Below, in pieces: positions 309-1,197 of a stretch of DNA of 64,000 nt. Below the pieces are notes generated by a model that saw nothing but the letters and a program-made list of their open reading frames with translations, was not told the DNA's origin and made no database searches. Each line of letters opens with the position of its first letter. The stretch's first letter is position 1. Source of the stretch: Candidatus Delongbacteria bacterium (GTDB lineage Bacteria; UBA4055); NCBI GenBank assembly GCA_003252515.1, contig QKDR01000125.1, forward strand, positions 30,272 through 94,271, in the 5' to 3' direction. Made by a program: the position numbers and the translations under genes.

Positions 309-761
309 ATGATATCTGCTTTAGATGTGGCCAAACTTTTTTTAAAGTGGGCATACAGGGATGGTGATGTAATCACCAATCTTAAAATGCAAAAATTACT
401 ATATTATGCTCAAGCTTGGCATCTTGTTTATTTCGATAAGCTATTGTTCGATGAAAATATTAAGGCTTGGGATTTTGGACCGGTTGTTCCTTCTGTTTAC
501 ACTGAATATAAAGAATTTGGAGCCAATCCTATTATTATAGATGTTGATAGTAGTCTTGAAGATTTATTCAATCAAGATACTTTAGAATTCCTAGAAGCTG
601 TATATGGGAATTATATCAAATATTCAGCGCATGATCTAGTAAATATTACACATAACGAAAGACCTTGGATTGAATCATATAAAGAAGGAGAATCCAATAC
701 AATAAATTGTGACTTAATAAAAGAATATTATACAAAACTTCTCAATGACACCCAAAAATAA
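309..761 (+). CDS. Panacea-domain (DUF4065, SocA/GepA-like) protein; putative antitoxin of a PanAT-type module.
   Basis: The translation contains the Panacea core motifs NLKMQKLLYYAQAWHL and AWDFGPVVPSVYTEYKEFG. The size (150 aa) is typical. The ORF overlaps the downstream ORF by 17 nt. Confidence 0.75.
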   Translation: MISALDVAKLFLKWAYRDGDVITNLKMQKLLYYAQAWHLVYFDKLLFDENIKAWDFGPVVPSVYTEYKEFGANPIIIDVDSSLEDLFNQDTLEFLEAVYGNYIKYSAHDLVNITHNERPWIESYKEGESNTINCDLIKEYYTKLLNDTQK

Positions 762-1197
762 GAAGTCTTATAACTTTCCTAAAGTCAAATTATCTCAAAG
801 CGAATCTTATACATTTCCTTTACAAAATGTGGGATTTTACGGGTTAAATCCATATTTTTCATTTAAAAAATACCATCATGATAACCCTGAGTTTAATTTC
901 AGTAATTTTAATACAGAAGAGATATGTATTTTTTTTGAGGAACTAAAGAACATGTCTGATTATAAATGGGAAGAAATTTTTAATCGTTTAAGAAGCTATT
1001 ATCACGCACACAAAGTAGACTGGAATTTCACAGCCTATGAAAAAGGTTTTAAACATGATGAATCCATTACAAACTATCCTGTCTATCAATTCAAAATTCA
1101 TAAACAATGGCGTGTATTCGGCTATTTTAATCATCATAATATTTTTAAGATTGTATGGGTTGACAAAAAACATTTAGTGTATCCATGGGACAGATAG
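745..1197 (+). CDS. Hypothetical 150-aa protein translationally coupled to the Panacea gene; putative toxin partner of unrecognised family.
   Basis: Its ATG lies inside the last codons of the upstream gene. It has no signal peptide. It carries an R-x5-H motif (RLRSYYH) and a beta-rich C-terminus (WRVFGYFNHHNIFKIVWVDKKHLVY) loosely reminiscent of RelE/ParE. Confidence 0.5.
   Translation: MTPKNKKSYNFPKVKLSQSESYTFPLQNVGFYGLNPYFSFKKYHHDNPEFNFSNFNTEEICIFFEELKNMSDYKWEEIFNRLRSYYHAHKVDWNFTAYEKGFKHDESITNYPVYQFKIHKQWRVFGYFNHHNIFKIVWVDKKHLVYPWDR

What the first reader, a model, noticed from the sequence alone, without database searches (positions are those of the whole stretch)
309..1197. Panacea-domain antitoxin-like gene coupled to an unclassifiable 150-aa ORF: candidate new PanAT-type toxin-antitoxin pair
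Seen in the sequence: the first ORF carries the Panacea/DUF4065 core (NLKMQKLLYYAQAWHL...AWDFGPVVPSVYTEYKEFG). The second ORF's ATG (745) lies 17 nt inside the first, with no RBS of its own. That arrangement is the translational coupling typical of bicistronic toxin-antitoxin modules. The second protein matches no family I recognise. It has an R-x5-H motif (RLRSYYH) of the kind found in HEPN RNases. It also has a beta-rich C-terminus (WRVFGYFNHHNIFKIVWVDKKHLVY) loosely reminiscent of RelE/ParE. Established knowledge: Panacea-domain antitoxins (PanA) are described as hyperpromiscuous partners of many unrelated toxin folds (PanT), including previously unknown ones. Inference: this ORF is a candidate novel PanT toxin. 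The module sits in an AT-rich islet, consistent with an accessory, defence-like locus.
Basis: partly seen in the sequence, partly recalled or inferred. Interest (0 to 1): 0.7.

Follow-up and report, generated by a model that had tools for sequence, protein, structure and literature searches.

The report
Panacea antitoxin with RelE-fold toxin
This is a real two-gene toxin-antitoxin-type module: a Panacea-domain antitoxin coupled to a small predicted RNA-cutting toxin of the RelE fold, and that toxin family was already catalogued in 2022, so the pair is an ordinary new member, not a new kind of toxin.

The parts
243..271 (+). Promoter-like site (TTTACT-17-TATACT) 38 nt upstream of ORF1; possible operon promoter
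   Evidence: Consensus scan. The number of such sites in the region does not exceed the shuffled expectation, so this is only a candidate.
309..761 (+). panA: stand-alone Panacea/DUF4065 antitoxin-type gene (150 aa, no HTH or other extra domain)
   Evidence: PF13274 81.1 bits against cut-off 25.7, residues 28-120. phrog_1281 E 1e-45. The SocA equivalog model scores 82 bits against cut-off 190, so it is not a SocA ortholog. Orthologous PanA genes of 31-78% identity lie upstream of every ORF2 relative examined.
745..761 (+). 17-nt overlap of the panA 3' end with the ORF2 start; no Shine-Dalgarno motif for ORF2 (translational coupling)
   Evidence: In relatives the junction ranges from a 23-nt overlap to an 11-nt gap.
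745..1197 (+). panT-like gene: 150-aa predicted RelE-superfamily (BECR) RNase toxin of the MAG6450 / PB-BECR1 / PanT-T1 kind
745..834 (+). Lys-rich N-terminal tail of ORF2 (residues 1-30), predicted disordered
   Evidence: Mean pLDDT is 45-56 for residues 1-30. Relatives also have a basic, poorly conserved N-terminus.
850..1182 (+). Conserved BECR-like domain of ORF2 (residues 36-146): beta1 (PYFSFK), two helices, then three C-terminal strands
   Evidence: NF046006 covers residues 38-146 as profile positions 1-102 of 103.
1009..1011 (+). Codon of H89 (CAC), first residue of the H-R-H triad
   Evidence: H in 154 of 156 relatives; invariant in A1 and A2.
1111..1113 (+). Codon of R123 (CGT), second residue of the triad
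   Evidence: R in 153 of 156 relatives, the rest gaps.
1171..1173 (+). Codon of H143 (CAT), third residue of the triad, near the C-terminus and followed by Y146
   Evidence: H in 154 of 156 relatives, the rest gaps.

Best explanation
ORF1 and ORF2 form a bicistronic PanAT-type toxin-antitoxin (or abortive-infection) module carried on a low-GC accessory islet. Shown: ORF1 is a stand-alone Panacea protein. ORF2 is translationally coupled to it. It belongs to a family that is always found directly behind a Panacea gene, is predicted to adopt the RelE/ParE (BECR) fold, and keeps an almost invariant H-R-H triad. Inferred: ORF2 is an endoribonuclease that arrests translation. H89 and H143 would act as general acid and base, and R123 would stabilise the transition state, by analogy with YafQ, YoeB and HigB. 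The most likely substrate is mRNA in the ribosomal A site; tRNA or rRNA are alternatives. Because PanA here has no extra neutralising domain, it most likely inhibits the toxin by direct protein-protein binding (type II). The toxin would be released when PanA is degraded or senses a trigger such as phage infection. The 17-nt overlap ensures that the toxin is made only after the antitoxin, in a fixed ratio.
Confidence: 0.72

Rival explanations
1. The same pair works as a phage-defence (abortive infection) sensor-effector system and not as an addiction or stress TA module. PanA would be the sensor of a phage cue and ORF2 the RNase effector. This concerns the biological role and is compatible with the mechanism given above.
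For: The domain is shared with the Menshen anti-phage effector NsnC. Relatives lie next to integrases, resolvase, a type III-like helicase, DUF4145 and ORF6N genes. The module has the lowest GC content in the window. Ernits et al. favour a sensory role for Panacea.
Against: No phage trigger is known for any PanA of this clade. No defence phenotype has been reported for T1 pairs in the papers read. The window shows no other recognisable defence gene immediately beside the pair.
Confidence: 0.4
2. ORF2 is a ParE-like, non-nucleolytic poison (for example of DNA gyrase) built on the same fold.
Against: RelE, HigB, YafQ and YoeB all score higher than ParE. An almost invariant His-Arg-His set with a C-terminal His-x-x-Tyr is typical of the RNase branch. 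The related NsnC domain is read as an RNase. Kurata et al. label the T1 toxin 'mRNase'.
Confidence: 0.08
3. ORF2 is a HEPN-type RNase that uses the RLRSYYH (R-x5-H) motif.
For: The motif is present in this one sequence.
Against: The R81 and R83 columns are variable or gapped in 156 relatives, and H87 alternates with R. The model contains a beta-sheet and is not an all-helical HEPN fold. No HEPN protein appears among the structural hits.
Confidence: 0.02
4. ORF2 is a non-toxic accessory protein and the pair is not a toxin-antitoxin system, as for the T1 representatives that were harmless in E. coli.
For: Two T1 representatives (E. coli prophage, phage Emek) were 'not toxic', and the PanA of the toxic one failed to neutralise it.
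Against: The Emek protein has lost all three triad residues, whereas ORF2 and 97% of its family keep them. Strong purifying selection and strict coupling to PanA argue for an activity that must be controlled.
Confidence: 0.15

Closest known systems
PanAT systems, PanT cluster T1 (Kurata et al. 2022, PNAS, PMC8832971)
   Same: A stand-alone ('noNTD') PanA sits upstream, the order is A|T, and junctions are short overlaps; -17 occurs several times in Dataset S1. The partner is a hypothetical protein of about 150 aa with no CDD hit. T1 holds 217 of the 1,268 predicted pairs, spans many phyla, and is labelled 'mRNase'. The ORF2 family profile matches the T1 member Emek gp16 at hhalign probability 97.9% over 109 columns.
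   Different: ORF2 has no BLAST-level similarity to the phage T1 member. Unlike that member, it keeps the H-R-H triad.
NCBIfam NF046006 'MAG6450 family protein' (Mycoplasma agalactiae MAG6450)
   Same: The match runs end to end over the 103-position domain model (residues 38-146, E 6e-7). 53 of 58 family members match. In M. agalactiae PG2 the neighbouring gene MAG6440 is annotated 'prophage protein ps3'. From my own knowledge that is an old name for DUF4065 proteins. The M. agalactiae 5632 PanAT pair is listed in T1.
   Different: The score of 29.9 bits is below the curated cut-off of 40, so by NCBI's rule ORF2 is a relative and not a member. No function is attached to the family name.
PB-BECR1 domain of the Menshen effector NsnC (Li et al. 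2025, NAR, PMC12065111)
   Different: ORF2 has no N-terminal PIN-like domain and no nsnA or nsnB neighbours. It is controlled by a Panacea antitoxin, not by a ParB/ABC-ATPase module. The Menshen paper does not mention Panacea or DUF4065.
RelE/YafQ/HigB/YoeB ribosome-dependent mRNA endonuclease toxins
   Different: No detectable sequence similarity. ORF2 is about 60 residues longer, with a basic disordered N-terminal tail and an insertion at residues 91-112. It has a different antitoxin family and a different set of conserved residues.

Membership tests
Panacea / DUF4065 (Pfam PF13274) - ORF1 | Score at or above the Pfam gathering threshold over the whole domain | tested here: met
   81.1 bits against 25.7; profile positions 2-112 of 113.
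SocA (type VI antitoxin, NCBIfam NF047745 equivalog) - ORF1 | Equivalog score at or above 190 bits | tested here: not met
   82.4 bits. ORF1 is a Panacea protein but not a SocA ortholog.
PanAT toxin-antitoxin pair (Kurata et al. 2022 criteria) | [quoted passage not shown] | tested here: met
   Seven independent relatives all have PanA directly upstream, from a 23-nt overlap to an 11-nt gap.
PanAT toxin-antitoxin pair (Kurata et al. 2022 criteria) | The partner is toxic when expressed alone, and PanA neutralises it | not testable with these tools
   This needs expression assays. Published T1 results are mixed: one toxic but not neutralised, two non-toxic.
PanT cluster T1 (Kurata et al. 2022) | Homology to listed T1 members | tested here: met
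   hhalign of A1 against Emek gp16 (YP_006560566.1) gives probability 97.9%, E 6e-13, 109 columns. Formal clustering with the authors' pipeline was not possible.
NCBIfam NF046006 MAG6450 family | Score at or above the curated cut-off of 40 bits | tested here: not met
   29.9 bits, E 6.2e-7, full-length domain match. 53 of 58 relatives match at E<0.01, best 1e-10. This makes it a relative or sister group.
RelE/ParE (BECR) superfamily | Core fold of helices packed on a four-stranded antiparallel sheet, recognisably similar to solved members | tested here: met
RelE/ParE (BECR) superfamily | Sequence-profile match to a curated RelE/ParE/YafQ/HigB/YoeB family | tested here: not met
   No Pfam family at E<=1, no PDB profile hit, and hhalign against E. 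coli YafQ gave probability 0.1%.
RelE/ParE (BECR) superfamily | RNase activity with conserved catalytic residues | tested here: inconclusive
   The H89-R123-H143 triad is conserved in 151 of 156 relatives and parallels the H-R-H triad reported for PB-BECR1. Activity and spatial clustering were not testable.
Menshen NsnC | C-terminal effector domain similar to PB-BECR1 | tested here: met
   PADLOC NsnC profile 189-279 of 284, E 8.6e-6; 32 of 58 relatives match.
Menshen NsnC | An N-terminal PIN-like domain, and adjacent nsnA (ParB-DUF262) and nsnB (ABC ATPase) genes | tested here: not met
   ORF2 is 150 aa with only a disordered N-terminal tail. Its neighbours are PanA and an unrelated 152-aa membrane protein.
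HEPN RNases | A conserved R-x4-6-H motif in an all-alpha domain | tested here: not met
   R81 and R83 are not conserved. The model is alpha+beta. There are no HEPN structural hits.

The most novel reading that the evidence does not exclude
The stand-alone toxin family of ORF2, the MAG6450 family, the largest PanT cluster (T1) and the ancestral Menshen effector domain PB-BECR1 would be one and the same H-R-H RNase module. That module would have been exchanged between two unrelated control systems: Panacea antitoxins, and the ParB/ABC-ATPase sensor of Menshen. In that reading the PanA-controlled version is a minimal two-gene abortive-infection system in which PanA is the phage sensor. None of the papers read makes this cross-link; the Menshen paper does not mention Panacea.
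Probability: 0.3. Interest if true: 0.5.

Novelty: new member of a known kind. Interest (0 to 1): 0.3.

Why it matters
The pair adds one more member to the most populous PanA-associated toxin family, which is also among the least characterised. No Pfam family covers it, no structure exists, and its biochemistry is unknown. Published toxicity tests on three members gave mixed results. The present analysis adds three things. First, it gives a concrete and testable active-site hypothesis: H89, R123 and H143, kept in 97% of relatives and lost in a member that was reported non-toxic. Second, it gives a fold assignment to the RelE superfamily. Third, it gives a sequence link to the Menshen effector domain. 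Together these would let the family be named and tested. None of this changes the current picture of toxin-antitoxin biology.

Tried and rejected
1. HEPN reading: rejected, because the motif is not conserved and the fold is wrong.
2. ORF3 (1235-1693) as a third component: rejected. It is absent beside all other pairs and has its own wide, independent distribution.
5. tblastn of ORF2 against phage and plasmid collections gave only chance-level hits or none.
6. The word-index protein search found only 2 proteins with the single sequence and 19 with the profile. The exhaustive search was needed.
7. The genome scan with the 58-sequence alignment failed for lack of a conserved block. The 16-sequence alignment gave 3 loci.
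8. Upstream context: the window starts 308 nt before ORF1, and the look-ups returned only a 1.9-kb contig. What lies to the left is therefore unknown. The truncated upstream ORF (3-206) has no Pfam match.
9. Operator search: no convincing inverted repeat lies in the 5' region. The promoter-like hits do not exceed chance.

Full report
OBSERVATION. ORF1 is 309..761 and ORF2 is 745..1197, both on the + strand and both 150 aa, and they overlap by 17 nt. ORF1 scores 81.1 bits on Pfam PF13274 (SocA_Panacea; cut-off 25.7) over residues 28-120 and has no further domain. It reaches only 82 of the 190 bits required by the NCBIfam SocA equivalog, so it is a Panacea protein but not a SocA ortholog. ORF1 is preceded by GGGGG and the downstream ORF3 by GGAGG. 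The 20 nt before the ORF2 ATG contain nothing similar, which fits translational coupling. The module has 29.8% GC against a window mean of 42.4% (sd 4.4). That is the lowest of all 889-nt windows. The rest of the window is ordinary chromosome, with methylmalonyl-CoA mutase, a PGK/TIM fusion, a TonB-dependent receptor and tRNAs.

ARE THE GENES REAL, AND DO THEY BELONG TOGETHER? The word-index protein search found only one close relative of ORF2: P0002, at 70% identity. The exhaustive HMMER search found 141 representative clusters with E<=1e-3, nearly all stand-alone proteins of 140-155 aa. I could read the genomic context of seven independent relatives at 29-70% identity: P0002, P0144, P0147, P0152, P0154, a Syntrophaceae MAG and a Daejeonella MAG. 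In every case a Panacea gene of about 150 aa lies directly upstream on the same strand, with a junction between a 23-nt overlap and an 11-nt gap. The identities of PanA and of the partner to the window proteins fall together across these loci (78/70, 51/45, 54/38, 54/37, 49/40, 49/29, 31/29 %). This pattern indicates that the pair is inherited as a unit. Against the closest pair, dN/dS is 0.13 for ORF1 and 0.09 for ORF2. Several relatives lie beside integrases, a resolvase, a helicase of type III restriction kind, DUF4145 or ORF6N genes, that is, in mobile or accessory regions. ORF3 (1235..1693) does not accompany any other pair and is not part of the module.

WHAT IS ORF2? Pfam gives nothing, but two other libraries do. 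NCBIfam NF046006 'MAG6450 family' matches end to end (residues 38-146 as profile 1-102 of 103, E 6e-7, 29.9 bits against a cut-off of 40). The PADLOC model of the Menshen effector NsnC matches through its C-terminal part only (profile 189-279 of 284, E 8.6e-6). These are not isolated hits. Of 58 aligned family members, 53 match NF046006 (best E 1e-10) and 32 match the same C-terminal part of NsnC. In the 58-sequence alignment exactly three columns are invariant: H89, R123 and H143. In an alignment of 156 relatives the H-R-H combination is kept in 151. F38, F40, Q115, G126, F134 and D140 are also nearly invariant. The R81 and R83 columns are variable or gapped, and H87 alternates with R.

RELATION TO PUBLISHED PanAT WORK. 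Dataset S1 of Kurata et al. 2022 lists 1,268 predicted PanAT pairs. Cluster T1 has 217 of them. It spans Tenericutes, Firmicutes, Actinobacteria, Bacteroidetes, Fibrobacteres, Proteobacteria, Cyanobacteria and phages. T1 pairs always have a 'noNTD' PanA first and a 'hypothetical protein' second, and several have a junction of exactly -17. The only M. agalactiae pair in the table is in T1. In strain PG2, MAG6450 lies next to MAG6440, annotated 'prophage protein ps3'. From my own knowledge that is an old name for DUF4065 proteins. From this I infer that the MAG6450 family corresponds to T1. I tested the link directly with the one T1 sequence I could retrieve, gp16 of Salmonella phage Emek. It lies next to a 'DUF4065 domain-containing protein'. 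The profile of the ORF2 family aligns to it over 109 columns with hhalign probability 97.9% and E 6e-13. In SI Table S1 of the same paper, the C. cadaveris T1 toxin is 'toxic', is labelled 'mRNase', and its PanA 'failed to neutralise'. The E. coli prophage and Emek T1 proteins were 'not toxic'. In the hhalign alignment Emek gp16 has E, A and F at the positions of H89, R123 and H143. Its harmlessness therefore fits the idea that the triad is required. That paper also lists several other RelE/ParE-like PanT clusters: T14, T28, T59, T60, T76 and T87.

MECHANISM. Shown: the domain composition, the coupling, the conserved pairing, the conserved triad and the predicted fold. Inferred from established knowledge of RelE-family toxins: ORF2 is an endoribonuclease that stops translation. 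The two histidines would act as acid and base and the arginine would stabilise the transition state. The C-terminal His-x-x-Tyr resembles the catalytic C-termini of YoeB, YafQ and HigB. A ribosome-dependent mRNA cut is the most likely mode, but the BECR fold also includes tRNases and ribosome-independent enzymes. PanA here is the bare Panacea domain. For that type Ernits et al. 2023 found direct neutralisation, and they propose a sensory role for Panacea. The basic, disordered N-terminal tail of ORF2 could be the PanA docking site or an RNA-binding arm; this is speculation. The failure of the C. cadaveris PanA to rescue in E. coli is the main caution.

NOVELTY AND VERDICT. The pair is a genuine PanAT-type module, but its toxin is neither unclassifiable nor HEPN-like. 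It belongs to, or is a close sister of, a family already catalogued as the most populous cluster of PanA partners that lacks any recognised domain. That family carries an NCBIfam name and shares its domain with a described anti-phage effector. I rate it a new member of a known kind, with interest 0.3. The modest added value has three parts. One is the explicit H-R-H active-site hypothesis. Another is the observation that a non-toxic published member lacks the triad. The third is the cross-link between PanT-T1/MAG6450 and Menshen PB-BECR1, which the Menshen paper does not draw.

Noticed in passing
window 1235..1693 (+): ORF3 is 152 aa with an N-terminal transmembrane helix and its own GGAGG, and it starts 38 nt after ORF2. 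It has no Pfam, NCBIfam or PADLOC family, yet 128 homologs of 40-80% identity occur across phyla. One identical protein (P0187) occurs in many different neighbourhoods: after REase-ARP/PDDEXK and MvaI_BcnI restriction genes, before Eco57I-type RM genes, and near BrnT and transposases. This is an unannotated small membrane-protein family that seems to travel in defence islands.
   Followed up: partly
window 2222..6260 (+), A-tract 2832..2842: A 212-aa ORF with a signal-peptide-like start (2222..2860) overlaps a 1162-aa Peptidase_C10 ORF (2772..6260) by 89 nt in different frames. An A11 homopolymer lies inside the overlap. Loss of one A would fuse them into one secreted C10 protease. This is either a possible slipped-strand phase switch or an assembly error.
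   Followed up: no
L015 15152..15637 (Salmonella phage vB_SemP_Emek gp16): This PanT-T1 member, reported non-toxic by Kurata et al., has E/A/F at the three positions of the H-R-H triad in the profile alignment. It looks like a catalytically dead copy kept next to a phage Panacea gene.
   Followed up: partly
proteins P0051, P0063, P0080, P0070, P0086 (218-257 aa) and P0092 (277 aa): Some family members carry an extra C-terminal region of about 70-100 residues with no Pfam match. P0092 carries the domain at its C-terminus behind an unknown N-terminal domain, the same layout as NsnC.
   Followed up: partly
window 1694..2221: A stretch of about 530 nt without a convincing ORF lies between ORF3 and the next gene. 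It has terminator-like hairpins at 1728-1741 and 1956-1973. No Rfam family was found at gathering threshold.
   Followed up: no
window 28046..30034 (+): A fused phosphoglycerate kinase / triosephosphate isomerase gene (NF010569, 858 bits against a cut-off of 883). This is a known kind of fusion, noted only as a possible taxonomic marker for the unnamed source organism.
   Followed up: no
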